In this document: positions 3,044-23,502 of the stretch, one piece after another
How the letters are laid out: each line of letters begins with the position of its first letter
How positions within the stretch are numbered: position 1 is the stretch's first letter
NCBI GenBank assembly: GCA_034437555.1
Contig: DAOTTQ010000060.1
Location: 21,073-85,072, forward strand
DNA from: Anaerolineae bacterium
Lineage (GTDB): Bacteria > Chloroflexota > Anaerolineae > Aggregatilineales > Phototrophicaceae
DNA: 64,000 nucleotides
Reading direction: 5' to 3'
The notes under the pieces: model-generated
Told to the model about the DNA's origin: nothing
Database searches by the model: none
Seen by the model: the letters and a program-made list of their open reading frames with translations, nothing else
Program-made: the position numbers and the translations under genes

Positions 3044-3838
3044 ATGAAAGTCATTACATTGTTGAACGAAAAGGGCGGCGTAGGAAAAACCACGCTGTCC
3101 ACACACATTGCCGCAGGCTTGGCATTGCGCGGTCGGCGTGTAGTGCTGGTGGATGCCGACCCGCAAGGGAACGCCACAACCGCCGTTGGGCTAGACAAAC
3201 AGCCCATGTTTTATGATTTGTGTGTGCGTAACGCCGAATGGAAAACGGCATTACGCCATATCCACCCACAGGTATACAGCCCGCCAAACTTCCAAACGAA
3301 GGGCAGCCTATATGTGGTAACAAGCAACGCAGAAACGCGCAATATTGCCAATAGCATCCGTAGCAATGCGCTCATTCGCCAACGCTTTCAAGAACTATCA
3401 TCTGCCGTAGATTATATCATCGTAGATACATCACCTACACCATCTTTGCTGCACGAAGCCATCACGCTTGCCAGCGATTACATTGTGATTCCCACCGATT
3501 GCGAAGCCTTTAGCGCACTAGAAGGCTTGCCCGATAGCATCGCACATACCAGCGTTGCCCGTGATGCCGCCGCCCAAATTGGGGTAAAAGTGGCGCATTT
3601 GCTGTGCATCATCCCCAATAAATTTAGACCACGCACCGTAGGACACAATGAAATTCTTAAACACCTTAAACAGCAGTACGGCGACCTGGTTTGGGAACCG
3701 CTTCAGCAAGCCATTATTTTTAGTGATGCCCAGCTTGTAGGGCAATTTTTGTACGGAGTTGCACCAGAATCAATTGCCACACGGCAAATGATGGACATGA
3801 TAGACCGCCTAGAACGAGAGGTAAAAGCCCGTGGGTAA
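3044..3838 (+). CDS. parA: ParA/Soj-family partition ATPase (orphan context)
   Basis: Deviant Walker A NEKGGVGKTT, then VLVDADPQGNAT and IIVDTSPTPS motifs. The 264-aa size is typical of small ParA proteins. The stop overlaps the next gene's start. Confidence 0.85.
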   Translation: MKVITLLNEKGGVGKTTLSTHIAAGLALRGRRVVLVDADPQGNATTAVGLDKQPMFYDLCVRNAEWKTALRHIHPQVYSPPNFQTKGSLYVVTSNAETRNIANSIRSNALIRQRFQELSSAVDYIIVDTSPTPSLLHEAITLASDYIVIPTDCEAFSALEGLPDSIAHTSVARDAAAQIGVKVAHLLCIIPNKFRPRTVGHNEILKHLKQQYGDLVWEPLQQAIIFSDAQLVGQFLYGVAPESIATRQMMDMIDRLEREVKARG

Positions 3839-6719: not shown

Positions 6720-9700
6720 ATGAATGCTTTACTACAATACTTCCAGTCAAGTTTACAACGCCAACTGTTGCTATTTCTTGTGCCGTTAGTGGTTATACCT
6801 ACAGTGCTAGTTGCAGTTATTCTAGGAACACAGTCCTTTAATGCGTCTTTGGAAACACTCAGAGAGGCAGAAGTGACGGAATTGAACCTTGATGTGTCTC
6901 GATTGAATGATGCTCTAGGCGTTCTTGTAAGTGACTTTCAATTCCTTAAAGACAGCCCTAACGTTACCAACTTTGCGCAAGCTGTTTCTGGAGGGGATGT
7001 CCTACAAGTTGCCGCAGCAAAAACAGATTTACAAAACCTTTATTTTTCCATGATGGTATCTAAGCCTGCCTATATCCAATTACGCTTTATCGACCTGCTA
7101 GGCAATGAACTTGTTCGCGTAGACAAAGACTTAGCTACGGGTAAGCCCTTCATCATAGTAGAACGTGATTTGCAAAATAAAGCCGATCGCGGGTATTTTA
7201 CAAGCACCATTTCTTTGCCCGAAGGTGAAATTTATGTTTCGCCTCTTGACCTTAATCGTGAAGGCACACCCCCAACGATTTCCGTTTTGGAAGATGGCAG
7301 TATTGTTCCAACCTTGCGCTACGCCACGCCTATTTTTACGACCAATACCGCAGGGCAACGTGAGCGTGCAGGGATGTTAATTACAAATGTGGACATCTCT
7401 GGAATTCTTGCTGATCTTGCCCCCAGTAACGAAGGTAACTATGCGTTCTTGGTGAATGGTGATGGCTACTTCTTGTATCACTCTGCTTCACCAGAAATCA
7501 CCTTTGGCTTTGAATCGGGCATTGAAGCCGTAGGGAATACCCCAAACACGCTCATTTCTGATGTCTTGCCTTTAACTGTGCAGGATTCTTCTTTCGAATT
7601 AGAAACCCAAGAAACAGAAAACGCGCAACTCTTGAATTATGTGCGTTATACCCCGCCCAGCGCGCCCGACAATTATTATTGGATGTTGGGTATTGCTAGT
7701 GATCAAAACCTGCTTCTTACGCCAGTTCGCAACACGGCATTTGCTACTACAGCAGGTGTAATCGTTTTGGGTCTTATCAGTGCGTTCGCTGTGTTGGTTA
7801 TCTCGCGTCAAATTACATCCCCACTGCTTAAACTTAGCAACCAAGCGGATTCCCTTGCTAAAGGACAATTTGATGTATTCTCTGACCTAGACGAAGAAGC
7901 ACGCCGTAAAGATGAACTAGGAACACTTGGACGAGCCTTTCAGGGCATGTCTTTACAACTACGTGAACTGCTGACAACACTAGAGCAACGGGTACAGGCG
8001 CGTACTGCTGACCTTGCAACTTCGGCAGAAATTGCTAGTGCCGCTAACCAAATTCGTGAACTAGACGACCTGATTAGCCTAACGGTGAACCTTGTCCGTG
8101 ACCGCTTTAACTTCTACTACGTTCAGGTCTATCTTATAAACGATGAAAAAACCCATGCTGTCCTTAAAGACGGTACAGGATATGTAGGACGACGACTTTT
8201 AAGCCAAGATCACCAATTGCCATTAGAGGGTCGTTCTTTGGTTTCTACAGCCATCCGCGAAAAGAATCAAGTGCTGGTAAAAGATACCAAAACAGATTCT
8301 CGCTTTCTCTCTAATGCGTTGTTGCCCGACACTCGCTCCGAACTAGTTGTTCCTTTGGTGGTGAGTGGTGTGGTGATTGGCGCGCTAGACATTCAGCACA
8401 GCGAATCTAACGCCTTTGAAGAAACTGAAACAACACTCTTTGCAACGCTTGCCGACCAGCTTGCCGTTACTTTTGACAACGTGAACCTTATCGAAACTTT
8501 GGCACACACTAAAGATGTGCTACAAGCCAGTACAGCCCGTATGAGCGCGATTACGCGCAATTTCCCCAACGGTGCTATTGTGATGTACGACCATGATTTC
8601 CGTTATCTCTTGGTAGATGGCGCGGGTCTTGCAGAAGCGGGCTTAAATAAAGAGGCAATGGAAGGCAAGACGCTTGACGAAGTATTCCCGCCAGAAACAG
8701 CAACTATTGTTAAAGCTGCTTATCAACGCGCCCTTAACGGCGATGAGGTCACAGAGGTTATTCCTTTTGGCGACCTTATTTACCAAACAATATCGCTTCC
8801 TGTGCGTGATGAAAATGATAACATCATTGCTGCTATGACGATCACACAAAACATCACAGAGCGTGTTCGTAGCGAAGAAACCATCAAACGTCGTGCGGTA
8901 CAGCTAGAAACAGTGGCAGCCGTGAGCGCACAAGCCAGCACAAACCTTGATGTTCCAACCCTCCTAAACACGGTCTCTACGCTAACCAAAGAACGCTTTG
9001 GACTGTACCATGCGCACATCTATTTGCTAGATAACGCCGAAAAGACCCTTGTCCTAAGTGGTGGTGCAGGCATGGCAGGGATGGAAATGGTGGCACGCAA
9101 GCATCATATCCCGCTTAGTCGTGAACACAGTTTGGTGGCACGCACTGCCCGTTCTTTGCAGGCGACAATCTCTAATGACATATCACAAGAACCCGACTTC
9201 TTATCCAATCCTTTGCTACCCGACACGCAATCAGAAATGGCTTTGCCCATGATTGTGGCGGGTGAGTTGGTAGGTGTGATGGACGTACAATCCGACCAAC
9301 TGGGGCGGTTTGATGAGGAGGACGTAATTACCTATGCCACGCTGGCTTCACAGGTGGCAGTCGCCGTAAAGAACGCACGTTTGTTTAAGGATATTTCTGA
9401 CATTCGTTCAGCGATTGATGAACACTCGATTGTGGCTATTACCGACCAAACAGGCAAAATTACTTACGCCAACCAGAAGTTTAGCGACATCTCCAAGTTC
9501 CCACTAGAAGAAGTGATCGGGCAAGACCACAGAATCATCAATTCGGGCTACCACAGCAAAGAGTTTATTCGTGACATCTGGGTAACGATTGCGAACGGGA
9601 AAACTTGGAAGGGGCAGATTAAGAACAAAGCCAAAGGCGGATCTTTCTACTGGGTAGATACCACCATCGTGCCATTCTTAAGTGATGATGGAAAACCGTA

Positions 9701-12410
9701 TCAATACATTGCCATTCGTACTGACATCACAGCGCAAAAATCAAACGAAGAGCAAATTACACGCCGTGCATCCGAGCTAGAAACGGTATCTGTGATTAGT
9801 ACGAATATCGCCCAACAACTGAACGTAGAAGATTTACTATGGACAGTTGCTGACCTTACAAAAGAGCAATTCCATCGCTACCATGCCCACATCTACATTT
9901 TAAATGAAGAAGGCACAGAACTGGTGTTGCGTGCAGGGGCAGGGCAAACAGGCAGGCGCATGGTGTATGAGGGATATAAAATTCGCCTAGACCATCCCGA
10001 TAGCATTGTGGCGGGTGTAGCAAGAGAACTCGAACCTCTTGTGGTGGGTGATGTGGCATTGGTAGACCATTACCTTCCAAATAAATACTTGCCAGAAACA
10101 CGCTCCGAAATGGCTGTGCCTATCGTTTACGGTGACAAGCTCATTGGTGTACTAGACATTCAAGACAGCATCCCCTATGCTTTTAATGATTTAGACATTC
10201 AGGTACAGCAAACGTTTGCAAACCAGGTAGCTACCGCTATTGAAAACGCGCGTGCATTTGAACAAACCCAGTTGCTCTTACGAGACATTACCACCGTCAA
10301 CCAAATCAACGAATACTTACGTGGTGACGAAGCAGTTGAGGTAGTAATTGAAAACGCCATGAAGGTTGCCATGGGGGTTTTGGGGGCAAATAGCGCTGTT
10401 TACTCGGAATATGATGTCCAAGCCCAACAATGGCAAGGGGTGGCAGGTACGGGCGGCACACTCACTAACGATGTAGCACAAACTTTCCGCGACCCCGCAA
10501 AAGCCTATCCCCATGGCATCATCGCCGTAGAAAAGCAACGGGTGGTCGTGGTAGACAACGCTCGATTCTACCCCGACTTTCCCCAAGATTATGTTGATGG
10601 ATTAGGGATTAAGAGTGTCCTGACCCTACCAGTAATTGCCGGGGATGTGCGTGGCGCTATCTTCTTGAACTATACCGACAGCTTACGCGCTTTCACCTCA
10701 GACGAGCTAGGACTAGCAGAAAACGTCGCTTCCCAAATTTCACTAGGCATTGGACGTAGAGTTGCCACCCAACAGGCAGACAAAGCGCGTCAAGAAACCG
10801 CCCGTATCTTTGAATCCTCGCTAGATATGCTAGGGTCGGCAACGTTTGAGGGTTTCTTTACCAACCTGAACCCGTCATGGGAAGCGACATTGGGTTACAC
10901 GATTGACGAACTAAGAGCAGAGCCGTTCTTGCACTTTGTCCATCCCGAAGATATTGATGAGACACTAAAAGCTGCCCAAGAACTCGCTACAGGGGTGCTT
11001 GCGCTAAACTTTATTAACCGCTACCGTTGTAAGGATGCGTCGTATCGTTGGGTCTCTTGGAACGCTAACCCAGATATGGAAAACGGCTTAATTCACTTTG
11101 TGGCGCGTGACATTACCTCTCAAAAAGAAAGCACCGAACTGGTTGTACGCCGCGCACGCGAGCTAGAAACAGTGTCACAATTAAGCGCAACCACGACCAC
11201 ATTGCTAGAACGTGATGAATTGCTCGACCAAGTGGTGTTGCTAACCCGTGACAACTTTAACTTGTATCATGCACAGGTTTATCTTCTTAGTGAAGATGGC
11301 ACACAACTGGTGCTGGCGGCTGGTGCGGGTGAAGTGGGGCAAAAGATGAAGGAACTCCATCATGCCATCTCGCTAAACAATCAAAATAGCCTTGTAGCAC
11401 GCGCTGCACGTACGCTTAAGGGTGTGATTTCGAATGATGTAACGTTAAACCCCGACTTCTTGCCAAACCCGTTATTGCCCCTTACACAATCCGAAATGGC
11501 TGTGCCTTTGGTGGTGGGTGGTGAACTCATTGGCGTGCTAGATGTGCAATCAGATGAAAGAAACCGCTTTGATGATGAGGACGTAAAAATTAAAACGATT
11601 CTCGCCGACCAAGTCGCTGTGGCGGTTCGTAATGCCGAAGCCTTTGACCGTGAACGCCGTACCATTGAACGCCTACGTGAGGTTGACCGCCTAAAGCAAG
11701 AGTTCCTTGCCAATATGAGCCATGAACTCCGCACACCTCTTAACTCCATTATTGGTTATAGTGAAGTGCTGATTGATGGGGTAGACGGTGAACTAAGCGA
11801 AGAAGCTATTGAGGACGTACAAGCCATTTACGGCAGTGGTAAGCACCTCTTAAATATCATCAATGAAATTCTTGACCTTGCCAAGATTGAAGCGGGGCAA
11901 ATGCAATTGCTTAGAAAGCCTATGCAACTCACCGACGTTCTTGAGGATATTGTTCACTCTAGCCAAATTTTGGCAAAGAAGAAGGGCGTTGACCTTCGCA
12001 TAGAGCAAAAATCATCATTAGGCTTAATAAGCGCAGACAAAGTGCGTATGAATCAAATTATGCTAAACCTTGTAAGCAATGCGGTTAAATTTACTGAACA
12101 AGGCGAGGTCGTGGTAAGCTATGGCACAGTAGAAAACAAGGCTTGTGTGTGGGTACAAGATACAGGCATTGGTATGAGTGCCGCCGATTTAGAAGTGATT
12201 TTTGAACGCTTCCGCCAAGCGGACGGCTCATCAACAAGACGTGCGGGCGGTACAGGTTTGGGGCTAACGATTACGCGCCAACTCATTGAAATGCACGGGG
12301 GTGAAATCTTCGTCCAAAGTGAACTTGACAAAGGCACAACCCTCTGGTTCTTACTACCCCTTATGGATGTGCCAGAAACCCGCCAAAGCGAACCCGCCAT
12401 AGGCGACTAA
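6720..12410 (+). CDS. Giant membrane sensor histidine kinase: Cache-like ectodomain, HAMP, 5 GAF and 3 PAS modules, HisKA, HATPase_c
   Basis: Two TM helices bracket a ~300-aa ectodomain, followed by a HAMP domain (ITSPLLKLSNQADSLAKGQFDV...). Four GAF modules end in LP(D/E/L)T(R/Q)SE(L/M).(V/L)P(L/M/I)....(L/V)(I/V)G(A/V)(L/M)D(I/V)Q, and a fifth is divergent. One PAS example is SIVAITDQTGKITYANQKFSDISKF. The H-box is FLANMSHELRTPLNSIIGYSE (His codon 11721-11723). ATPase boxes are LVSNAVKFT, QDTGIGM and GGTGLGLTI. Confidence 0.9.
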   Translation: MNALLQYFQSSLQRQLLLFLVPLVVIPTVLVAVILGTQSFNASLETLREAEVTELNLDVSRLNDALGVLVSDFQFLKDSPNVTNFAQAVSGGDVLQVAAAKTDLQNLYFSMMVSKPAYIQLRFIDLLGNELVRVDKDLATGKPFIIVERDLQNKADRGYFTSTISLPEGEIYVSPLDLNREGTPPTISVLEDGSIVPTLRYATPIFTTNTAGQRERAGMLITNVDISGILADLAPSNEGNYAFLVNGDGYFLYHSASPEITFGFESGIEAVGNTPNTLISDVLPLTVQDSSFELETQETENAQLLNYVRYTPPSAPDNYYWMLGIASDQNLLLTPVRNTAFATTAGVIVLGLISAFAVLVISRQITSPLLKLSNQADSLAKGQFDVFSDLDEEARRKDELGTLGRAFQGMSLQLRELLTTLEQRVQARTADLATSAEIASAANQIRELDDLISLTVNLVRDRFNFYYVQVYLINDEKTHAVLKDGTGYVGRRLLSQDHQLPLEGRSLVSTAIREKNQVLVKDTKTDSRFLSNALLPDTRSELVVPLVVSGVVIGALDIQHSESNAFEETETTLFATLADQLAVTFDNVNLIETLAHTKDVLQASTARMSAITRNFPNGAIVMYDHDFRYLLVDGAGLAEAGLNKEAMEGKTLDEVFPPETATIVKAAYQRALNGDEVTEVIPFGDLIYQTISLPVRDENDNIIAAMTITQNITERVRSEETIKRRAVQLETVAAVSAQASTNLDVPTLLNTVSTLTKERFGLYHAHIYLLDNAEKTLVLSGGAGMAGMEMVARKHHIPLSREHSLVARTARSLQATISNDISQEPDFLSNPLLPDTQSEMALPMIVAGELVGVMDVQSDQLGRFDEEDVITYATLASQVAVAVKNARLFKDISDIRSAIDEHSIVAITDQTGKITYANQKFSDISKFPLEEVIGQDHRIINSGYHSKEFIRDIWVTIANGKTWKGQIKNKAKGGSFYWVDTTIVPFLSDDGKPYQYIAIRTDITAQKSNEEQITRRASELETVSVISTNIAQQLNVEDLLWTVADLTKEQFHRYHAHIYILNEEGTELVLRAGAGQTGRRMVYEGYKIRLDHPDSIVAGVARELEPLVVGDVALVDHYLPNKYLPETRSEMAVPIVYGDKLIGVLDIQDSIPYAFNDLDIQVQQTFANQVATAIENARAFEQTQLLLRDITTVNQINEYLRGDEAVEVVIENAMKVAMGVLGANSAVYSEYDVQAQQWQGVAGTGGTLTNDVAQTFRDPAKAYPHGIIAVEKQRVVVVDNARFYPDFPQDYVDGLGIKSVLTLPVIAGDVRGAIFLNYTDSLRAFTSDELGLAENVASQISLGIGRRVATQQADKARQETARIFESSLDMLGSATFEGFFTNLNPSWEATLGYTIDELRAEPFLHFVHPEDIDETLKAAQELATGVLALNFINRYRCKDASYRWVSWNANPDMENGLIHFVARDITSQKESTELVVRRARELETVSQLSATTTTLLERDELLDQVVLLTRDNFNLYHAQVYLLSEDGTQLVLAAGAGEVGQKMKELHHAISLNNQNSLVARAARTLKGVISNDVTLNPDFLPNPLLPLTQSEMAVPLVVGGELIGVLDVQSDERNRFDDEDVKIKTILADQVAVAVRNAEAFDRERRTIERLREVDRLKQEFLANMSHELRTPLNSIIGYSEVLIDGVDGELSEEAIEDVQAIYGSGKHLLNIINEILDLAKIEAGQMQLLRKPMQLTDVLEDIVHSSQILAKKKGVDLRIEQKSSLGLISADKVRMNQIMLNLVSNAVKFTEQGEVVVSYGTVENKACVWVQDTGIGMSAADLEVIFERFRQADGSSTRRAGGTGLGLTITRQLIEMHGGEIFVQSELDKGTTLWFLLPLMDVPETRQSEPAIGD

Positions 12411-12427
12411 GATAGAAAGATTCATGT

Positions 12428-12455
12428 AGGGGCGCAGGTATCCACTTGCGCCCCT
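12428..12455 (+). terminator. GC-rich hairpin after the kinase gene (AGGGGCGCA/TGCGCCCCT), no U-tract
   Basis: Read directly. It may be an attenuator or RNA-stability element rather than a full terminator. Confidence 0.3.
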
Positions 12456-12479: not shown

Positions 12480-14165
12480 GTGATTTCCCCCTTTATGCTT
12501 GCCATTCGTTGTCTTGATTGCGGTCATGAACATTCCGCACAGGAAACGCTTCTCCCAAAGTGCGAGGCGTGTGGTTCTGGATGGCTAGATGCCATTTACG
12601 ATGAAAATGCTGTTTCTCCTCTTTGGCACTACGGTTTAGGAAACCGCGAACTCTCTCTTTGGCGATATGAAGAACTCCTCCCCATTCAGCGTACCCATCC
12701 TGAAAGTAGTATGGGCGAAGGCTGGACACCCCTCACGCGTCTATATTCCTATGAACAGATATACCAGCATCAAGGCATGATTTACGTTAAAGATGAACGC
12801 GCCCAACCTACAAATAGCTTCAAAGACCGCCAAGCCGCGCTTACAGTAATTGCCCTACAACAAAAGGGCATTAAAGAGATTGTGCTGGCAAGCACTGGCA
12901 ACGCGGGCGTAGCGTACGCGGCTTATTGTGCGCGTGCGGGCATTAAACTTTGGCTCTTTGTTACTAGCCTTGTGCCAGCCGAGAAAATGCGTGAGGCGGC
13001 ACTTTATGGCTGTAAGGTGGTCAAAGTATCGGGAACCTACGATGAAACCAAGCACGTTGCAGAAGAATTTGCCCAGCGCCAGGGAGTTCATTTAGATAGA
13101 GGCGCAAAAGCCGTTCCTGGCAAAGAAAGCATGAAAACACTCGCCTTTGAAATCGCCGAGCAGTTGGGGCTAAAGTCTGATAAGAAGGGTGGGTGGGTTG
13201 CCCCCGATTGGTACATTCAAGCCGTCAGTGGCGGTATTGGTCCCCTGGGTGTGTGGAAGGGCTTTAGCCAATTACAGCGTATGGGCTTTATTGATAAGAT
13301 GCCCAAATTAGGCATAGTACAAGCTGCCGGCTGTGCGCCAATGGTTAATGCTTTTTTAGCAAATGCCCCCAAAGCAACTCCTGTTACCCCAGAAACGCTT
13401 ATTACTGTTTTAGCCACAGGTGACCCCGGTAAGAGCTATGAACTGCTCTTAGAAGCCGTCAAGAGCAACGGTGGCACCATGTTGGCATTAGAAGATGGCG
13501 ATACCTTTGTTGCAATGCGCCAGCTTGCCAGCAAGGGCGGACTTTCGGTAGAGCCTGCCACGGCGGTGGCATTTGGTGGGCTAGAACGGATGCTTAAAGA
13601 AGGCACCATTCAGCCCCATGAAACCGTTGTGATTAACTGTAGTGGTCACACTTTCTTGGCAGAAGGGCATGTCTTGGGTGACCAATATGAGCAATATGTG
13701 CTAGAAGCCCAAAAGAACGCCGAAGGCAAGCCGATTATGCCCCAAGTCGGTGGGATAACAGGCGCAATTCAAAACCTAGACGGCAGAGTAAAGACGATTG
13801 TTTTGGTGGATGATAGTGGCAATGACCGCCGTTTAATTCGTAAGTTGCTTCGTAGCCACAAACGCTATGTCATTCATGAGGCGGATAACGGGCGTGACGG
13901 CATGAAGGCAATGTATAGCCACAACCCCGACCTCATCATCCTGGATTTAACGCTACCGGATATGGACGGGCTAACGATGTTGGAAACCATCCAACGCGAT
14001 AGCCAACTGCGTGACATACCACTTATTGTGTATTCTGCACGTGATTTAACCCACGCAGAGCGTGATAGAATAGAATCACTAAATCGCGTGTTTATGCCAA
14101 AAACAGGGCTAGACCGCGAAAAGCTCTTAAGCGCAATCGAAGATGAGTTATCCTCTGAGGGATAA
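12480..14165 (+). CDS. Threonine-synthase-like fold-type II PLP enzyme fused to a C-terminal response-regulator receiver (REC) domain
   Basis: N-terminal Cys4 ribbon CLDCGHEH...CEACGSG. The PLP-lysine motif is NSFKDRQA (Lys codon 12822-12824). Also present are STGNAGVAYAAY and a glycine loop AVSGGIGPLG. REC runs from KTIVLVDDSG, with DLIILDLTLPDMDG (Asp codon 13944-13946) and the conserved Lys in FMPK. The start is GTG 12480 or ATG 12495. Confidence 0.75.
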   Translation: MISPFMLAIRCLDCGHEHSAQETLLPKCEACGSGWLDAIYDENAVSPLWHYGLGNRELSLWRYEELLPIQRTHPESSMGEGWTPLTRLYSYEQIYQHQGMIYVKDERAQPTNSFKDRQAALTVIALQQKGIKEIVLASTGNAGVAYAAYCARAGIKLWLFVTSLVPAEKMREAALYGCKVVKVSGTYDETKHVAEEFAQRQGVHLDRGAKAVPGKESMKTLAFEIAEQLGLKSDKKGGWVAPDWYIQAVSGGIGPLGVWKGFSQLQRMGFIDKMPKLGIVQAAGCAPMVNAFLANAPKATPVTPETLITVLATGDPGKSYELLLEAVKSNGGTMLALEDGDTFVAMRQLASKGGLSVEPATAVAFGGLERMLKEGTIQPHETVVINCSGHTFLAEGHVLGDQYEQYVLEAQKNAEGKPIMPQVGGITGAIQNLDGRVKTIVLVDDSGNDRRLIRKLLRSHKRYVIHEADNGRDGMKAMYSHNPDLIILDLTLPDMDGLTMLETIQRDSQLRDIPLIVYSARDLTHAERDRIESLNRVFMPKTGLDREKLLSAIEDELSSEG

Positions 14166-14188: not shown

Positions 14189-14566
14189 ATGAGCAGGATT
14201 GTAATTATCGAAGATAACCCTGATGTAGCTAGGCTTGCAGAAAAGCTACTTCGTAACGCGGGTCATATTGTTATTGTTGCGCCAGATGGCGAAACAGGCT
14301 TGACGACCACCTTTGAACAAATGCCCGACCTTGTGCTGATGGACTTGGGCTTGCCCGATATTGAAGGGCAAACAGTGGTAGGTTTGCTAAAGCAACAAGA
14401 AAGCACCTCTCATATTCCCGTCATTGCGTTCACCGCGTGGCCCCAAGAAACGGCGTATAGTATGGCGCAGGCTTATGGCTGTGACGGAGTGATTGTAAAA
14501 CCTATTGATACGCGGCTTTTTGCCAAACAGGTCGCTGAGTTTTTGGAAGCGCGCAATGAACGCTAA
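14189..14566 (+). CDS. Stand-alone CheY-like response-regulator receiver
   Basis: RIVIIEDNPD, DLVLMDLGLPDIEG, IPVIAFTA and VIVKP. It is 125 aa with no output domain. Confidence 0.85.
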   Translation: MSRIVIIEDNPDVARLAEKLLRNAGHIVIVAPDGETGLTTTFEQMPDLVLMDLGLPDIEGQTVVGLLKQQESTSHIPVIAFTAWPQETAYSMAQAYGCDGVIVKPIDTRLFAKQVAEFLEARNER

Positions 14567-15437
14567 TGATTCGACACATGCAGGCATGTCTAGTAATTTG
14601 GGTATGCTTTGTAGTGAATACAATTTTCAACAGCTTTCAGAACTTTATAATCAAGGGCGTGTGGATTATATTGTTCCCATGCCCATGAACGCAAAACGTA
14701 TGTCTGAATATATCACGGCGCATGACGTTAGCCTTACGCATTCGGTGGTTGCCATTGATAAGAATGACCATCAACCTAATGGCATGTGCATGTTAGGGGT
14801 AAGAGGGGAGAGAAGTTGGGTAACCCGTTTAGGGGTTATTCCAGAGCGCAGACGGCGCAAATCGGGCGAATTTTTAATGAATGAAGCCCTTCGTCTTTCT
14901 GGCGAAAGCGGGATTCGCCATGTGCAATTAGAAGTGATTCGTGGTAACGACCCTGCCCAAACTCTTTTTGAGAAACTGGGTTTCAAGGTTATACGTGACT
15001 TAGTGGTAATTCGCCGCCCCCCCACACCCTTGCAAGCAGGGCAAATGTCCTCTCATGTGCGCCAGTACGCCAACATTGAAGATAATCAAGAAATTTTGCG
15101 CTTGCTAAACACTCGTGATGATGCCCCCACATGGATTGAAGAAACCGCATCACTTATCAATGGTGGCGGTATGCGCGTCATCACGCTAACGCTAGACAGT
15201 GGCGAAGAGGGCTGGATTGCCTTTCAGCGTACACCATTTCAATTAACACACCTTGTTTTTAATCCCCAAGCCAGCCCCCAAATGATACGCACGCTTTTAA
15301 GGCTCCTGCATGAGTTGTATCCCTTGCAAGATACCAAAGTAGAAAACTTGCCCGAAAATCATCCCGCCTTGCCCCATTTTTACGCTATGGGCTATGTGAA
15401 TGCTTTCGAGCGCATTGAAATGGTTTTAACGCTCTAG
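14556..15437 (+). CDS. GNAT-family acetyltransferase (possibly two-lobed)
   Basis: The acetyl-CoA-binding region is VTRLGVIPERRRRKSGEFLMNEAL ... LFEKLGF. The likely start is ATG 14556 (MNANDS...), overlapping the receiver stop by 11 nt, rather than the track start of 14505. Confidence 0.7.
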   Translation: MNANDSTHAGMSSNLGMLCSEYNFQQLSELYNQGRVDYIVPMPMNAKRMSEYITAHDVSLTHSVVAIDKNDHQPNGMCMLGVRGERSWVTRLGVIPERRRRKSGEFLMNEALRLSGESGIRHVQLEVIRGNDPAQTLFEKLGFKVIRDLVVIRRPPTPLQAGQMSSHVRQYANIEDNQEILRLLNTRDDAPTWIEETASLINGGGMRVITLTLDSGEEGWIAFQRTPFQLTHLVFNPQASPQMIRTLLRLLHELYPLQDTKVENLPENHPALPHFYAMGYVNAFERIEMVLTL

Positions 15438-15486
15438 TGGGGTTTGTAATCTAATCTAACAAACTAATTGTTTTCTTTTGGTAACG

Positions 15487-15520
15487 GGCGGTTTATAATG
15501 AAACCGTCTTTTAGTTTTCT
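15487..15520 (+). terminator. Intrinsic terminator after the GNAT gene
   Basis: Stem GGCGGTTT / AAACCGTC with one G-U pair, loop ATAATG, followed by TTTTAGTTTT. Confidence 0.6.
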
Positions 15521-15561: not shown

Positions 15562-17469
15562 ATGAGTGATGATGTTTTTTCACCCCCGACAGGGGAATGG
15601 TATCACCCTACCGAAGATGTTATCCATAATGCCCACATTCCCGATTACGAAGAAGTGTATCGTGAAGCGCTTCAAGACCCCCAAGCCTTTTGGGCAAAAC
15701 GTGCCGATACCCTAGAGTGGCATAAGCTATGGGACAAGGTGCTAGACGATAGCAACCCGCCATTTTATAAGTGGTTTGTGGGCGCAAAGACTAATATCAT
15801 ACACAATGCGGTAGACCGTCACGTTAAAACATGGCGAAAGAACAAGCTCGCTATCATCTGGGAAGGCGAGAACGGCGATAAAGTCACCATGTCTTATTGG
15901 CGGTTGCGGCAAGAAGTGAACAAATTCGCCAACGTCCTTAAAAGCATGGGCGTAAAGAAGGGCGATAGAGTCACAATTTACATGGGGCGCATCCCAGAAA
16001 TTATGATTGCGATGCTGGCGTGTGCCAAAATTGGCGCACCCCATAGTGTGGTGTATGGTGGCTTTAGTGAACAAGCCCTCGCCGACCGCATTGAAGATGC
16101 AAAAAGCCGTGTGCTAGTGACGTGCGATGGTGCATTTTTACGCGGTAAAATTATTCCGCTTAAAGAAGTGGCAGACGAAGCCGCTCGGCGTTCCCCCGTA
16201 GTAGAGCATATGATTGTGGTCAAGCGCACAGGGCAACCCGTTCAAATGGAAGAAGGGCGCGATTATTGGTATCACGACCTGATGAGCCTACCCATTGCCA
16301 GTCCATACTGCGAAACCGAAGTGTTGGACAGTGAAGACCCGCTCTTTATTCTGTATACCAGTGGCACAACTGGCAAACCAAAGGGCGTACTTCATACACA
16401 TGGGGGCTATCAGGTGTATGTGAGTACCACGCTAGAATGGTCATTTGACCTCAAAGATGATGACCGTTGGTGGTGCGCCGCCGACCCCGGCTGGATTACA
16501 GGACACAGTTATATTGTGTATGGGCCCCTCATTATTGGCGCAACGAGCATTATTTATGAGGGTGCGCCCAATTACCCTTATCCCGACCGTTGGTGGCGCA
16601 TTGTCGAAAGTTATGGGGTGACGGTGCTATATACAGCCCCAACCGCTATTCGGGGCTTGATGCGCTTTGGTGATGCTTGGCCCAATCGTCACGACTTAGG
16701 CAGTTTGCGCCTGTTAGGAAGCGTGGGTGAACCCATTAATCCAGAGGCTTGGCGTTGGTTTTATAACGTCATTGGGCAAGAGCAATGCCCCATTATTGAC
16801 ACATGGTGGCAAACCGAAACAGGTGGCTTTATGATTACGCCCATGCCTAGCGTTAGTCTAAAGCCCGGCAGTGCCACGCGCCCCTTCCCTGGCATTGTGG
16901 CGGATGTTGTCCGTGAGGATGGCTCATCGTGCAAGCCCGGTGAGGATGGCTTACTGGTCATTAAAACGCCTTGGCCCGCTATGCTTCGCACCGTCTGGGG
17001 CGATGACAACCGCTTTATAGAGCAGTATTGGTCACGCTTCAAAGAGCAGGGGTGGTACTTAACAGGGGATACGGCTCGCAAAGATGAGGACGGCTATTTC
17101 TGGATTATTGGGCGTAACGATGACGTGATTAAAGTCAGTGGCTATCGCCTAGGTACTGCCGAAGTAGAGAGCGGTTTGGTAAGCCATCGCTCTGTGGCAG
17201 AATCCGCCGTTGTGGCTATTCCCGATGAAGTAAAAGGCAACGTCATCTATGCGTATTGCATCCTGCGTCAAGGCTTTACAGGAAGCCAAGAGCTAGTTAC
17301 CGAACTTAAGGCGCATGTTCGCCACGAAGTAGGGGCAATTGCCGTTCCCGAAAAAATCGAATTTGTGGACACGCTACCCAAGACACGCAGCGGCAAAATT
17401 ATGAGGCGTGTGCTAAGGGCAAGGGCGCAAGGCTTGCCTTTGGGGGATTTAAGCACCCTAGAAGAATAA
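15562..17469 (+). CDS. acs: Acetyl-CoA synthetase (AMP-forming)
   Basis: YTSGTTGKPKGV, WWQTETGG, and the C-terminal PKTRSGKIMRR containing the conserved regulatory/catalytic Lys (codon 17395-17397). 635 aa. Confidence 0.92.
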   Translation: MSDDVFSPPTGEWYHPTEDVIHNAHIPDYEEVYREALQDPQAFWAKRADTLEWHKLWDKVLDDSNPPFYKWFVGAKTNIIHNAVDRHVKTWRKNKLAIIWEGENGDKVTMSYWRLRQEVNKFANVLKSMGVKKGDRVTIYMGRIPEIMIAMLACAKIGAPHSVVYGGFSEQALADRIEDAKSRVLVTCDGAFLRGKIIPLKEVADEAARRSPVVEHMIVVKRTGQPVQMEEGRDYWYHDLMSLPIASPYCETEVLDSEDPLFILYTSGTTGKPKGVLHTHGGYQVYVSTTLEWSFDLKDDDRWWCAADPGWITGHSYIVYGPLIIGATSIIYEGAPNYPYPDRWWRIVESYGVTVLYTAPTAIRGLMRFGDAWPNRHDLGSLRLLGSVGEPINPEAWRWFYNVIGQEQCPIIDTWWQTETGGFMITPMPSVSLKPGSATRPFPGIVADVVREDGSSCKPGEDGLLVIKTPWPAMLRTVWGDDNRFIEQYWSRFKEQGWYLTGDTARKDEDGYFWIIGRNDDVIKVSGYRLGTAEVESGLVSHRSVAESAVVAIPDEVKGNVIYAYCILRQGFTGSQELVTELKAHVRHEVGAIAVPEKIEFVDTLPKTRSGKIMRRVLRARAQGLPLGDLSTLEE

Positions 17470-22608: not shown

Positions 22609-23502
22609 ATGATGAACGACCCTAATCCTAAACAACATCGCCGCCGTTGGTGGCTTGTTTTGGCAGGCATGCTGGCATTTGCTTTGTTTGCACCACGCCT
22701 TGCCCCCCTTGCTGATGTCTCAACGTCTCAGATTGCCCCACCCATCGGGGATCAACAAGAGGGCATCTATGAGATGAACGCAGGCAATAGCACCGCCACT
22801 ATGGATATTACGAGTATGTGGGGAGGCGATTGGTTTACCAAGTCTCTTACATTTGCGCTTTTTGATGACCTTGCGCTTTTTGAAGGTGATATTGCCTTGC
22901 ACACAGACAGCCTTACTGTGGGTGGCTTGGGTGTCAATCGCACTAGCCTTCTGTGGAAAGATGGGCTTGTGCCGTATGAGATAGACCCCAAATTGCCCGC
23001 CCAAAACCGTGTGTTTGATGCTATCGCTCATTGGGAAGCCAACACTAGCATTCGTTTTGTGCAACGCACGCCCCAAAACGCCAATCAATACCCCAATTAT
23101 GTCTATTTTCAGCCCGCTTCGGGATGCTGGTCTTATGTGGGTATGGTAGGTGGCAAACAACCGTTGGGTTTAGCATTAGGGTGTGGCACGGGTAGCACCA
23201 TCCATGAGATAGGGCATGTGGTGGGCTTGTGGCATGAACAAAGTCGCGCAGACCGTGACAAGCACGTTCAAATTCACTTCGAGAACATTGTTTCTGGAAT
23301 GGAACACAATTTCACACAGCACATTGCTGATGGGCAAGACCTTGGCGCGTATGATTACGAAAGCATTATGCACTATCCACGCTGGGCTTTCTCTAAAAAT
23401 GGCAAAGATACCATCGTGCCGATTCAGGATATCGCTATTGGTCAACGAAGTGTCCTAAGCGAGGGTGATATTGCGGCTGTTGAATCCCTGTATAAGCGAT
23501 AA
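22609..23502 (+). CDS. Secreted astacin-family (M12A) zinc metalloprotease
   Basis: N-terminal hydrophobic anchor/signal. The zinc signature HEIGHVVGLWHEQSRADRD (23203-23259) matches HExxHxxGxxHExxRxDRD. The Met-turn is SIMHY. Confidence 0.8.
   Translation: MMNDPNPKQHRRRWWLVLAGMLAFALFAPRLAPLADVSTSQIAPPIGDQQEGIYEMNAGNSTATMDITSMWGGDWFTKSLTFALFDDLALFEGDIALHTDSLTVGGLGVNRTSLLWKDGLVPYEIDPKLPAQNRVFDAIAHWEANTSIRFVQRTPQNANQYPNYVYFQPASGCWSYVGMVGGKQPLGLALGCGTGSTIHEIGHVVGLWHEQSRADRDKHVQIHFENIVSGMEHNFTQHIADGQDLGAYDYESIMHYPRWAFSKNGKDTIVPIQDIAIGQRSVLSEGDIAAVESLYKR

What the first reader, a model, noticed from the sequence alone, without database searches (positions are those of the whole stretch)
12480..14165. 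Threonine-synthase-like PLP enzyme fused to a phospho-receiver domain
Seen: one uninterrupted 561-codon ORF. Residues 1-~430 carry a Cys4 ribbon, the PLP-lysine motif SFKDR, STGNAG and a Gly loop typical of ThrC-type fold-II PLP enzymes. Residues ~437-555 form a complete REC domain (DD pair, DLIILDLTLPDMDG, S/T, K). Established knowledge: the commonly catalogued enzymatic outputs of response regulators are CheB, GGDEF, EAL, HD-GYP, PP2C, cyclases and kinases. To my knowledge a ThrC-like PLP enzyme is not among them. Inference: phosphorylation by the adjacent giant kinase may directly switch an amino-acid beta/gamma-replacement or elimination activity. That would be metabolic control by a two-component system without transcription.
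Basis: partly seen in the sequence, partly recalled or inferred. Interest (0 to 1): 0.7.

Follow-up and report, generated by a model that had tools for sequence, protein, structure and literature searches.

The report
Receiver-fused threonine-synthase-like PLP enzyme
One gene joins a threonine-synthase-like vitamin-B6 enzyme to a two-component "receiver" switch; the fusion is real, is inherited with its neighbouring sensor kinase in hundreds of Anaerolineae (Chloroflexota) genomes, is unstudied, and probably lets a kinase switch an amino-acid-converting enzyme directly.

Summary
ORF 12480-14165 (+) encodes 561 aa: a Cys4 ribbon, a fold-II PLP domain (Pfam PALP, 1.6e-60; Lys115 in SFKDR) and a complete receiver (Response_reg, 3e-17; D444/D445, D489, S519, K541).

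It is not a one-off. At least 581 stretches in GTDB species genomes encode relatives. The best 80 are all Chloroflexota, mostly labelled Anaerolineae. A 44-67 % identical histidine-kinase core lies just upstream on the same strand in 61 of 69 evaluable loci. Stand-alone receiver(s) and, in closer relatives, a GNAT acetyltransferase follow.

The window protein is a derived in-frame deletion whose single receiver is a REC1/REC2 hybrid.

The PLP domain scores below every curated threonine-synthase and cysteate-synthase cut-off. Four of the five residues that bind the substrate phosphate in canonical ThrC are replaced, so its substrate is unknown.

Best reading (about 0.5): a kinase-gated accessory PLP enzyme in a non-transcriptional signalling operon. 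Rivals are the genuine threonine synthase under kinase control, or a PLP domain acting as ligand sensor.

I found no paper on this fusion. Receiver fusions to metabolic enzymes are a known trend, so this is a new variant of a known kind.

The parts
6720..12410 (+). Giant sensor histidine kinase (1896 aa): TM, Cache-like extracytoplasmic sensor, TM, HAMP, PAS and 5 GAF domains, HisKA, HATPase_c. It has no receiver and no HPt domain. It is the presumed phosphodonor.
   Evidence: Pfam and the N-terminal sequence. An orthologous kinase core (44-67 % identity, 212-327 bits) ends a median of about 80 nt upstream of the PLP-REC gene on the same strand in 61 of 69 evaluable loci. Most other kinase-core hits in the same loci score only 49-156 bits at 25-38 %.
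12480..14165 (+). The fusion gene: Zn ribbon, ThrC-like fold-II PLP domain, conserved linker and hybrid receiver (561 aa; alternative ATG start at 12495).
12510..12572 (+). Cys4 zinc-ribbon (C11, C14, C28, C31).
   Evidence: Read from the sequence. C28 and C31 are invariant and C11 and C14 are at least 90 % conserved in 90 relatives. The same N-terminal ribbon occurs in the PRK08197-type ThrC-like proteins, whose model aligns from residue 5.
12708..13646 (+). PLP-dependent (PALP, fold type II) domain, residues 77-389. The PLP lysine K115 is the codon at 12822-12824.
   Evidence: Pfam 1.6e-60. Threonine synthases 1UIM and 2ZSJ are the best PDB sequence hits and the best structural matches. K115 is K in 79 of 79. 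The pocket differs from canonical ThrC.
13647..13787 (+). Sequence-conserved linker (residues 390-436; HTFxAExHxLGDQY ... GLxxAxxxLD) between the PLP domain and the receiver.
   Evidence: Mean pairwise identity is 60 % among 73 two-receiver relatives, against 23 % for the REC1-REC2 spacer. AlphaFold2 confidence is low at 395-397 and 415-434.
13788..14153 (+). Hybrid receiver domain (residues 437-558). Strand 1, helix 1 and strand 2 (to about residue 468) come from ancestral REC1. The rest comes from ancestral REC2, including phospho-acceptor D489 (codon 13944-13946), S519 and K541. The deletion junction lies at about nt 13881-13886.
   Evidence: Alignment to 700-aa relatives shows one ~145-residue in-frame gap. 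The N part is 19-23 of 33 identical to REC1 against 9-14 of 21-34 to REC2. The C part is 42-51 of 81-93 identical to REC2 against 27-33 of 84-91 to REC1. The deletion is shared with P0006 (80 % identical; listed with its own 3.6-kb contig). The hybrid is predicted to fold as an intact receiver with pLDDT 85-96 over residues 441-560.
14189..14566 (+). Stand-alone receiver (125 aa) with a complete phospho-acceptor set, 23 nt after the fusion gene. It is a separate conserved gene, not a split-off REC2.
   Evidence: Pfam 2.8e-20. Orthologues at 53-69 % identity follow the two-receiver genes in other loci, while it is only about 38 % identical to REC1 or REC2. It is present in at least 49 of 65 evaluable loci.
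14586..15437 (+). GNAT-family acetyltransferase. The likely start is ATG 14586 (283 aa). The mechanical ORF starts at TTG 14505 and overlaps the receiver gene.
   Evidence: Pfam Acetyltransf_1 at 2.8e-10. Orthologues of 283-338 aa at 39-58 % identity occupy the same position in 37 of 65 evaluable loci. There is no close solved structure.
15486..15509 (+). Terminator-like hairpin followed by a T-rich tail, after the GNAT gene and before the acetyl-CoA synthetase gene. It is a possible operon end.
   Evidence: This is weak evidence, because the number of such sites in the region is not above the shuffled expectation.

Best explanation
The gene encodes a signal-gated accessory PLP enzyme. It belongs to an Anaerolineae-wide signalling operon: sensor kinase, then ThrC-like PLP enzyme with C-terminal receiver(s), then stand-alone receiver(s), then often a GNAT acetyltransferase.

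The proposed mechanism is as follows. The upstream kinase autophosphorylates in response to its Cache, PAS and GAF inputs. It transfers the phosphoryl group to the receiver aspartate, D489 here, and to both REC1 and REC2 in the ancestral form. Phosphorylation then changes the activity of the attached fold-II PLP domain. This would most likely happen through receiver dimerisation or release of an autoinhibitory contact, transmitted by the conserved linker. The enzyme performs a beta- or gamma-elimination or replacement on an amino-acid substrate that is probably not recognised in the way canonical threonine synthase recognises O-phosphohomoserine. The output would be metabolic or post-translational, not transcriptional.

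Shown here: the domain composition, the intact catalytic and phospho-acceptor residues, the family, the synteny, the two-receiver ancestry and the remodelled pocket. Inferred: kinase-to-receiver phosphotransfer, the direction of control (receiver to enzyme), and the chemistry.
For: 1. Both modules are intact and under strong constraint. K115 is K in 79 of 79 relatives. REC1 and REC2 keep DD, D, S/T and K in 72-73 of 73. Mean pairwise identity among 73 two-receiver relatives is 71 % for the PLP domain, 60 % for the linker and 68 % for REC1, against 23 % for the inter-receiver spacer.
2. The kinase is a co-inherited neighbour: 61 of 69 loci, same strand, median gap about 80 nt.
3. No DNA-binding regulator is present in the conserved gene set.
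4. The domain order, catalytic domain first and regulatory module at the C-terminus, is the standard design of regulated fold-II PLP enzymes. Examples from established knowledge are IlvA with ACT-like domains and cystathionine beta-synthase with a Bateman module. Remote relatives found here carry a C-terminal LeuA allosteric domain in the same position.
5. The protein scores below all curated ThrC and cysteate-synthase cut-offs: 240.7 against 303, 141.1 against 167.1, and 120.8 against 324.9. T88, N154, S155 and N188 of T. thermophilus ThrC are replaced, and R160 is displaced by one position. This argues for an accessory rather than housekeeping role.
6. Some genomes hold two copies: L059 and L067 come from the same MAG.
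7. Reduction from two receivers to one happened at least twice, in the window/P0006 hybrid and in P0121, which lost REC1. One receiver therefore seems to be enough.
Against: - No biochemical data exist for any member.
- A conserved PLP lysine does not prove turnover. GabR/MocR-type regulators keep theirs yet act as sensors (established knowledge).
- AlphaFold2 gives low confidence for the linker, and no inter-domain contacts could be inspected. The coupling mechanism is therefore conjecture.
- With two to four receivers per kinase, the fused receivers could be phosphate sinks rather than switches.
- Basic residues R207, K210 and K215 remain in the remodelled loop, so a phospho-ester substrate, even O-phosphohomoserine, is not excluded.
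- I could not test whether the same genomes also hold a canonical thrC.
- The roles assigned to the T. thermophilus pocket residues rest on my recollection of Omi et al. 2003. That paper could not be retrieved here.
Confidence: 0.5

Rival explanations
1. It is the organism's genuine threonine synthase (O-phosphohomoserine to threonine) placed under two-component control. The kinase would then gate threonine biosynthesis directly.
For: - Threonine synthases are the best sequence and structural matches.
- JGI and some NCBI records name members 'threonine synthase'.
- The lysine, the S-T-G-N carboxylate loop and the PLP-phosphate glycine loop are kept.
- A basic residue (K215, or R in relatives) sits one position after the R160 equivalent and could still bind phosphate.
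- The gene is very widely kept across Anaerolineae orders.
- Plant ThrC is likewise allosterically controlled through an added domain (2C2B).
Against: - It scores below the curated cut-offs of every ThrC model. Unfused Zn-ribbon relatives P0148, P0152 and P0158 pass them.
- T88 becomes A, N154 becomes R, S155 becomes G and N188 becomes G, and these changes are family-wide.
- No ThrC-family gene other than the fusion (plus a non-canonical paralogue in L072 and L080) was found in the flanks of the 80 loci, and no amino-acid-biosynthesis gene is among the conserved neighbours.
- NCBI's pipeline mostly names members only 'pyridoxal-phosphate dependent enzyme'.
- Two copies occur in at least one MAG.
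Confidence: 0.2
2. The PLP domain is a ligand sensor rather than an output. It would bind an amino acid as an external aldimine, in the way GabR/MocR regulators do, and thereby change how well the attached receiver(s) accept or lose phosphate. The fusion would then act as a ligand-gated phosphate sink or relay. It would tune the signal reaching the stand-alone receivers, the GNAT or a downstream REC-kinase.
For: - Each kinase faces several receivers: two in the fusion plus one or two stand-alone.
- Some loci have a REC-HisKA-HATPase gene directly downstream, for example L083. This fits multi-step or branched signalling in which sinks are common.
- The receiver lies C-terminal to the other domain, which is the position that input domains normally occupy relative to a transmitter or receiver.
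- The strongly conserved PLP-linker-REC1 unit fits coupling in either direction.
Against: - The PLP domain is the most conserved part of the protein at 71 %. Its whole catalytic apparatus is retained, and nothing marks it as a pseudo-enzyme.
- Known PLP sensor domains are fold type I and are fused to DNA-binding domains, not fold type II (established knowledge).
- No HPt protein that would define a relay was seen in the loci.
Confidence: 0.2
3. The single-receiver protein in this window is a damaged or decaying copy, or an assembly artefact, of the two-receiver gene and has no function of its own.
For: It lacks about 145 residues present in its closest relatives.
Against: - The deletion is in frame and joins equivalent positions of two receivers.
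- The resulting domain keeps all five functional residues and is predicted to fold with pLDDT 85-96.
- P0006, which is 80 % identical and is listed with its own contig, shares the deletion and pairs with the window protein inside the two-receiver clade. The deletion is therefore probably inherited and has persisted through 20 % sequence divergence.
- REC1 and REC2 are only about 35-40 % identical, so assembly collapse is implausible.
Confidence: 0.02

Closest known systems
Threonine synthase: class II ThrC (T. thermophilus 1UIM/1V7C, A. aeolicus 2ZSJ) and the Zn-ribbon PRK08197/NF006050 type
   Same: It has the same fold-II PLP fold (Foldseek TM-score 0.84-0.86 on the target). It keeps the SFKDR lysine, the S-T-G-N loop and the N-terminal Cys4 ribbon. 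It nests inside the Zn-ribbon ThrC-like radiation in a neighbour-joining tree.
   Different: It scores below all curated cut-offs. The residues that hold the O-phosphohomoserine phosphate are replaced: T88A, N154R, S155G, N188G, with R160 displaced and GNAGN changed to SGGIGP. It has a C-terminal linker and receiver(s), and it sits in a signalling operon rather than an amino-acid biosynthesis operon.
Response regulators with enzymatic outputs (CheB, PleD-type GGDEF, RpfG-type HD-GYP, PP2C) and receiver fusions to 'standard metabolic enzymes' noted by Galperin et al. (PMC5847659)
   Same: It has a receiver with a complete phospho-acceptor site, fused to an enzyme and encoded beside a histidine kinase. 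The logic of direct, non-transcriptional control is the same.
   Different: The output is a PLP-dependent amino-acid enzyme, which I did not find described in any paper searched. The receiver is C-terminal, not N-terminal. The ancestral form has two tandem receivers. Unlike the narrowly distributed archaeal fusions described in that paper, this one spans several Anaerolineae lineages and at least 581 genomic matches.
Fold-II PLP enzymes with C-terminal regulatory modules: IlvA threonine deaminase (ACT-like domains), cystathionine beta-synthase (Bateman/CBS pair), and plant ThrC (SAM-activated)
   Same: The design is the same, with the catalytic PALP domain first and the regulatory module after it. 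Remote relatives found here carry a LeuA allosteric domain at that position. This is what the protein most plausibly works like.
   Different: Those modules bind small-molecule effectors, whereas here the module is a phosphorylation switch fed by a kinase. No homology of the regulatory parts is implied.
GabR/MocR PLP-dependent regulators
   Same: They are a precedent for a PLP domain with an intact lysine that senses an amino acid instead of turning it over. This is the analogue for the sensor rival.
   Different: They are fold type I, aminotransferase-like, and fused to a winged-helix DNA-binding domain. No receiver is present, and the fold and family are unrelated.
Cysteate synthase (TIGR03844; CapA2, 9K3C)
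   Same: It is a ThrC-derived enzyme that changed substrate, to O-phosphoserine plus sulfite. It is a structural match.
   Different: The protein scores 120.8 bits against a cut-off of 324.9 and is only 20 % identical to 9K3C. It is not a member.

Membership tests
Threonine synthase (EC 4.2.3.1; NCBIfam TIGR00260, NF006050 and other equivalogs) | Fold-type II PLP domain with the Schiff-base lysine in the S-F-K-D-R context | tested here: met
   PALP at 1.6e-60. K115 aligns with K61 of T. thermophilus ThrC and is K in 79 of 79 fused relatives.
Threonine synthase (EC 4.2.3.1; NCBIfam TIGR00260, NF006050 and other equivalogs) | Whole-protein score at or above the curated equivalog cut-off | tested here: not met
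   NF006050 scores 240.7 against 303. TIGR00260 scores 141.1 against 167.1. NF004170 scores 183.2 against 421. Unfused relatives P0148, P0152 and P0158 pass both NF006050 and TIGR00260.
Threonine synthase (EC 4.2.3.1; NCBIfam TIGR00260, NF006050 and other equivalogs) | Residues that bind the phosphate of O-phosphohomoserine (T88, N154, S155, R160, N188 in T. thermophilus ThrC; the roles are from my own recollection of Omi et al. 2003) | tested here: not met
   These positions are A142, R207, G208, G214 (with K215 next) and G251, and the changes are consistent across the fused clade. The four representatives that keep STGNT, NSxNPxR and GNxGN (P0204, P0205, P0222, P0235) belong to a group whose few organism-named members are archaeal.
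Threonine synthase (EC 4.2.3.1; NCBIfam TIGR00260, NF006050 and other equivalogs) | Genomic association with the threonine pathway (hom, thrB), or being the sole ThrC of the genome | tested here: inconclusive
   No amino-acid-biosynthesis gene is among the conserved neighbours in the 80 loci or the three contexts. Whether a canonical thrC exists elsewhere in the same genomes could not be examined.
Threonine synthase (EC 4.2.3.1; NCBIfam TIGR00260, NF006050 and other equivalogs) | Conversion of O-phosphohomoserine to threonine | not testable with these tools
   This needs an enzyme assay.
Cysteate synthase (TIGR03844) | Score at or above the curated cut-off | tested here: not met
   The score is 120.8 bits against 324.9.
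Two-component response regulator (receiver domain protein) | Receiver (CheY-like) domain above the Pfam gathering score | tested here: met
   Response_reg scores 63.2 bits against 30.2. The predicted (beta-alpha)5 fold has pLDDT 85-96 over residues 441-560.
Two-component response regulator (receiver domain protein) | Complete phosphorylation site: acidic pair, phospho-acceptor Asp, Ser/Thr and Lys | tested here: met
   D444, D445, D489, S519 and K541 are each conserved in 76-78 of 79 relatives. REC1 of the two-receiver forms is likewise complete in 72-73 of 73.
Two-component response regulator (receiver domain protein) | Cognate histidine kinase encoded alongside | tested here: met
   A kinase with HisKA and HATPase_c domains ends 69 nt upstream. 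Orthologous kinases hold the same position in 61 of 69 loci.
Two-component response regulator (receiver domain protein) | Phosphorylation of the Asp by the kinase, and a resulting change in output | not testable with these tools
   This needs phosphotransfer and activity assays.
MocR/GabR-type PLP sensor regulators | Fold-type I aminotransferase-like domain fused to a winged-helix DNA-binding domain | tested here: not met
   The domain is fold type II (PALP), and no DNA-binding domain is present.

The most novel reading that the evidence does not exclude
The conserved Anaerolineae operon may be a complete two-component pathway whose output is chemistry rather than transcription. In this reading, phosphorylation of the fused receiver(s) switches a ThrC-derived PLP enzyme with a new substrate specificity. 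The enzyme makes or destroys an amino-acid-derived small molecule. The co-inherited GNAT acetyltransferase may then modify that molecule, or modify a protein target. This would be the first PLP-dependent response-regulator output and a lineage-wide metabolic signalling module.
Probability: 0.3. Interest if true: 0.75.

Novelty: new variant of a known kind. Interest (0 to 1): 0.55.

Why it matters
If phosphorylation does gate the PLP domain, this adds a new chemical class to the outputs of two-component systems: PLP-dependent amino-acid transformation. It would also show direct kinase control of amino-acid metabolism in Anaerolineae, a bacterial class abundant in sludge, sediments and digesters, whose members found here are almost all metagenome-assembled genomes.

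The family is also practical to study. It offers hundreds of natural sequence variants, natural one-receiver and two-receiver forms, and a natural REC1/REC2 chimera (this window). The chimera keeps helix 1 of REC1, which by established knowledge carries most kinase-docking specificity, together with the phospho-acceptor half of REC2. It is in effect a ready-made domain-swap experiment.

For annotation, these proteins are called 'threonine synthase' in JGI records. Metabolic reconstructions of Anaerolineae MAGs may therefore credit them with a threonine-synthesis step that the pocket residues do not support.

Tried and rejected
1. Stand-alone receiver as a split-off REC2. I first suspected that the receiver at 14189-14566 was the second receiver of the 700-aa relatives, cut off by a stop codon. 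This is rejected. The alignment shows an internal in-frame deletion instead. The stand-alone receiver is only about 38 % identical to REC1 or REC2, while its orthologues at 53-69 % identity follow the two-receiver genes elsewhere.

2. Literature. Seven full-text searches found no paper on a ThrC- or PLP-receiver fusion. Neither did term searches within two Galperin census papers. Omi et al. 2003 and Galperin 2006 are not held.

3. Co-occurrence of a canonical thrC in the same genomes.
 - tblastn of T. thermophilus ThrC against the window and the 80 loci found only the fusion itself, plus a non-canonical SFKARG-type paralogue in L072 and L080.
 - I then picked the four representatives with a canonical motif, looked up their clusters, which carried no taxonomy, and spent the last homologue search on them. 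I hoped to match contig lengths with those of the fused proteins.
 - The few hits with organism names were archaeal (Thermoplasmata, Thermoplasmatota, Bathyarchaeia), so the attempt failed.

4. Rfam found no RNA family anywhere in the window.

5. Promoter and terminator scans gave counts not above the shuffled expectation. Only the hairpin after the GNAT gene is worth noting.

6. Composition shows no compositional island at the locus.

8. GNAT function. There is no informative solved relative, and the only NCBIfam match is generic.

9. An amino-acid-binding motif in the kinase's Cache-like sensor could not be recognised by eye.
Full report
**1. The observation**

The ORF at 12480-14165 (+) is uninterrupted and 561 codons long. 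Pfam finds PALP at residues 77-389 (E 1.6e-60) and Response_reg at 440-550 (E 3.1e-17), both far above the gathering scores. The Cys4 ribbon (C11, C14, C28, C31), SFKDR with K115, STGNAG (138-143), the SGGIGPLG loop (250-257) and the receiver residues D444/D445, D489, S519 and K541 are all present and conserved in relatives. AlphaFold2 with a 90-sequence alignment gives mean pLDDT 90.8, and only the linker (395-397, 415-434) is uncertain. Foldseek and phmmer against the PDB both put threonine synthases first, with TM-score 0.84-0.86 on the target and E about 1e-42. The neighbouring 1896-aa protein (6720-12410) is a membrane histidine kinase with a Cache-like sensor, HAMP, PAS, five GAF, HisKA and HATPase_c domains.

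**2. It is a large family, not a one-off**

A search of 5.8 billion proteins returned 7,885 hits at E <= 1e-10. All 120 best hits carry PALP plus Response_reg. They are named 'threonine synthase' (JGI) or 'pyridoxal-phosphate dependent enzyme' (NCBI), and come from Anaerolineae and Chloroflexota MAGs. Of these, 581 encode a relative. The 80 best are all Chloroflexota, labelled Anaerolineae, Anaerolineales, Caldilineaceae, Ardenticatenales, Thermoflexales/Thermoflexus or Aggregatilineales.

Among 234 cluster representatives collected in two searches, 136 are PLP-REC-REC (median 707 aa), 92 are PLP-REC (median 551 aa) and 6 lack a receiver; of these six, the one that carries a source name is marked partial. 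In a neighbour-joining tree of the PLP core, the fused proteins form one clade, which also holds five shorter representatives (374-492 aa). This clade nests within the Zn-ribbon ThrC-like radiation.

**3. The window protein is a derived deletion form**

Aligned with its closest relatives (59-68 % identical, about 683-726 aa), the window protein shows a single in-frame gap of about 145 residues. The gap runs from just after strand 2 of REC1 to the equivalent point of REC2.

- Residues 435-468 are 19-23 of 33 identical to REC1, against 9-14 of 21-34 to REC2.
- Residues 469-561 are 42-51 of 81-93 identical to REC2, against 27-33 of 84-91 to REC1.

The receiver is therefore a REC1/REC2 hybrid. It keeps helix 1 of REC1 and takes the phospho-acceptor half from REC2. 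P0006, which is 80 % identical and is listed with its own contig, has the same junction. The two form a pair nested among two-receiver proteins. The deletion is therefore probably inherited and has been tolerated, and is not an artefact. The hybrid is predicted to fold well.

The abundant single-receiver subfamily has a REC1-like receiver. P0121 lost REC1 altogether. The likely history is PLP-REC1, then PLP-REC1-REC2, then at least two independent reductions. The stand-alone receiver at 14189-14566 is a separate conserved gene.

**4. A conserved signalling operon**

In 61 of 69 loci with enough upstream sequence, a kinase whose HisKA-HATPase core is 44-67 % identical to the window's ends just upstream on the same strand. 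The median distance is about 80 nt. Most other kinase-core hits in the same loci score much lower.

Downstream lie one or two stand-alone receivers (at least 49 of 65 loci). In the closer relatives a GNAT acetyltransferase of about 295 aa follows (37 of 65). More distant loci replace the GNAT with a REC-HisKA-HATPase gene. Others have HAMP-GAF proteins and a ParA-like ATPase before the kinase and an EamA transporter after the fusion.

No DNA-binding regulator belongs to the conserved set. In the window the gaps between genes are 69, 23 and 19 nt, and a terminator-like hairpin follows the GNAT gene. The acetyl-CoA synthetase gene after that is specific to this window, with no hits in the 80 loci.

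**5. What the PLP domain is and is not**

It scores below the curated cut-off of every NCBIfam threonine-synthase model and of cysteate synthase. More distant unfused Zn-ribbon relatives pass both NF006050 and TIGR00260.

Mapped onto T. thermophilus ThrC, the lysine (K61 to K115) and the S84-T85-G86-N87 loop are kept. The residues I recall as holding the substrate phosphate are not kept:

- T88 becomes A142.
- N154 becomes R207.
- S155 becomes G208.
- R160 becomes G214, with K215 one position later.
- N188 becomes G251, and GNAGN becomes SGGIGP.

These changes are consistent across the fused clade. The replaced loop (D206-R-G-A-K210 ... K215-E-S-M-K-T) is itself nearly invariant. A specific but different anionic substrate or ligand is therefore likely, and a phospho-ester is not excluded. 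I do not file the protein as a threonine synthase.

**6. How it most likely works**

- Constraint. The PLP domain (71 % mean pairwise identity), the linker (60 %) and REC1 (68 %) form a tightly constrained unit. The REC1-REC2 spacer is free to vary at 23 %.
- Design. Regulated fold-II PLP enzymes normally carry their regulatory module at the C-terminus, as in IlvA and cystathionine beta-synthase (established knowledge). Remote relatives found here carry a LeuA allosteric domain there.
- Proposal. I therefore favour, at about 0.5, a kinase-gated enzyme. The kinase phosphorylates D489, and phosphorylation changes catalysis through receiver dimerisation or relief of autoinhibition.
- Rivals. The protein may be the genuine threonine synthase under such control (0.2). 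Alternatively, the PLP domain may act as a ligand sensor that gates a phosphate sink or relay (0.2). The second reading is encouraged by the many receivers per kinase and by the REC-kinase genes in some loci.
- Rejected. Decay or artefact is essentially excluded (0.02).

**7. Comparison with what is known, and novelty**

No paper on this fusion was found. Galperin et al. 2018 (PMC5847659) note that receivers attached to standard metabolic enzymes occur in multiple instances, usually with a narrow distribution. This case is therefore a new variant of a known kind. Three features set it apart: a PLP-dependent output, C-terminal tandem receivers, and an unusually broad and syntenic distribution across several Anaerolineae lineages. 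It also raises an annotation caveat for 'threonine synthase' calls in Anaerolineae MAGs.

**8. Limits**

- I could not determine whether the same genomes hold a canonical thrC.
- I could not inspect model coordinates.
- I could not infer the substrate.
- All mechanistic steps beyond domain content and synteny are inference.

Noticed in passing
P0175, P0199, P0224 (611-620 aa) and P0256 (718 aa), remote relatives: Other ThrC-like PLP enzymes carry different added modules: a C-terminal LeuA allosteric/dimerisation domain (three representatives) or an N-terminal inositol-monophosphatase-family domain. ThrC-like enzymes seem to recruit regulatory or partner domains repeatedly.
   Followed up: partly
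window 12429-12454: An 8-bp G+C-rich hairpin (GGGGCGCA, 10-nt loop, TGCGCCCC) sits in the 69-nt gap between the kinase stop and the PLP-REC start. No T-run follows it. It was seen in the sequence and not flagged by the terminator scan, because the loop exceeds 8 nt. It could be an RNA processing or attenuation element, or nothing.
   Followed up: no
L080 12057-13223; L072 4151-5312: In two Anaerolineales loci, a second, unfused Zn-ribbon PLP paralogue of a different type (SFKARG, PTAGNAG, PTGGGTG motifs) lies just after the stand-alone receiver. In L072 it is split into two overlapping ORFs, which suggests a frameshift or sequencing error.
   Followed up: partly
L050, L071, L073, L076, L078, L079, L083: In more distant loci, the PLP-REC gene (560-600 aa) is followed by a 412-437-aa kinase gene instead of a receiver plus GNAT. 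In L083 this gene reads REC-HisKA-HATPase by Pfam. This suggests a kinase cascade or branched pathway.
   Followed up: partly
window 3044-3838; L081 6576-7352: A ParA/MinD-like ATPase is encoded near the kinase, both in the window (two genes upstream, followed by a 268-aa protein with no Pfam match at E <= 1e-5) and in L081 (between a HAMP-GAF protein and the kinase). In several other loci ORFs of about 270-300 aa sit in a similar position between kinase genes, but these were not annotated.
   Followed up: no
L081 11704-12675: In this 2.09-Mb contig, an EamA-family (drug/metabolite exporter) gene directly follows the PLP-REC gene, and alanine dehydrogenase and acetyl-CoA hydrolase genes come next. 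This is a possible hint of an exported amino-acid-like product, but it is a single case.
   Followed up: no
window 14505-15437 and 15562-17469: The mechanical ORF of the GNAT gene starts at TTG 14505 inside the receiver gene, whereas ATG 14586 gives the length seen in orthologues. An acetyl-CoA synthetase gene follows the GNAT only in this window, with no hits in the 80 loci. GNAT-mediated acetylation of Acs is a known regulatory theme, so the adjacency may or may not be meaningful.
   Followed up: partly
L059 and L067 (both from MAG DAOUGD01, isolate R24_97): Two different contigs of one MAG each carry a member of the family, so some genomes have two paralogous copies.
   Followed up: no
P0127 (562 aa): One divergent representative has a degraded acidic pocket (HS in place of the DD pair) and a weak Response_reg score of 27.4 bits, below the cut-off. 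It may be a pseudo-receiver variant.
   Followed up: no
window 40572-49988 (-) and 22609-23502 (+): The window also encodes a 3138-aa protein with multiple PKD domains and PD40/DPPIV-N beta-propeller repeats, and an astacin (M12A) metallopeptidase, a family better known from animals.
   Followed up: no
P0204, P0205, P0222, P0235 and their relatives: In one search, the ~410-aa ThrC proteins most similar to these four representatives (which keep STGNT, NSxNPxR and GNxGN) include only four with an organism name. All four are archaeal: Thermoplasmata, Thermoplasmatota and Bathyarchaeia.
   Followed up: partly
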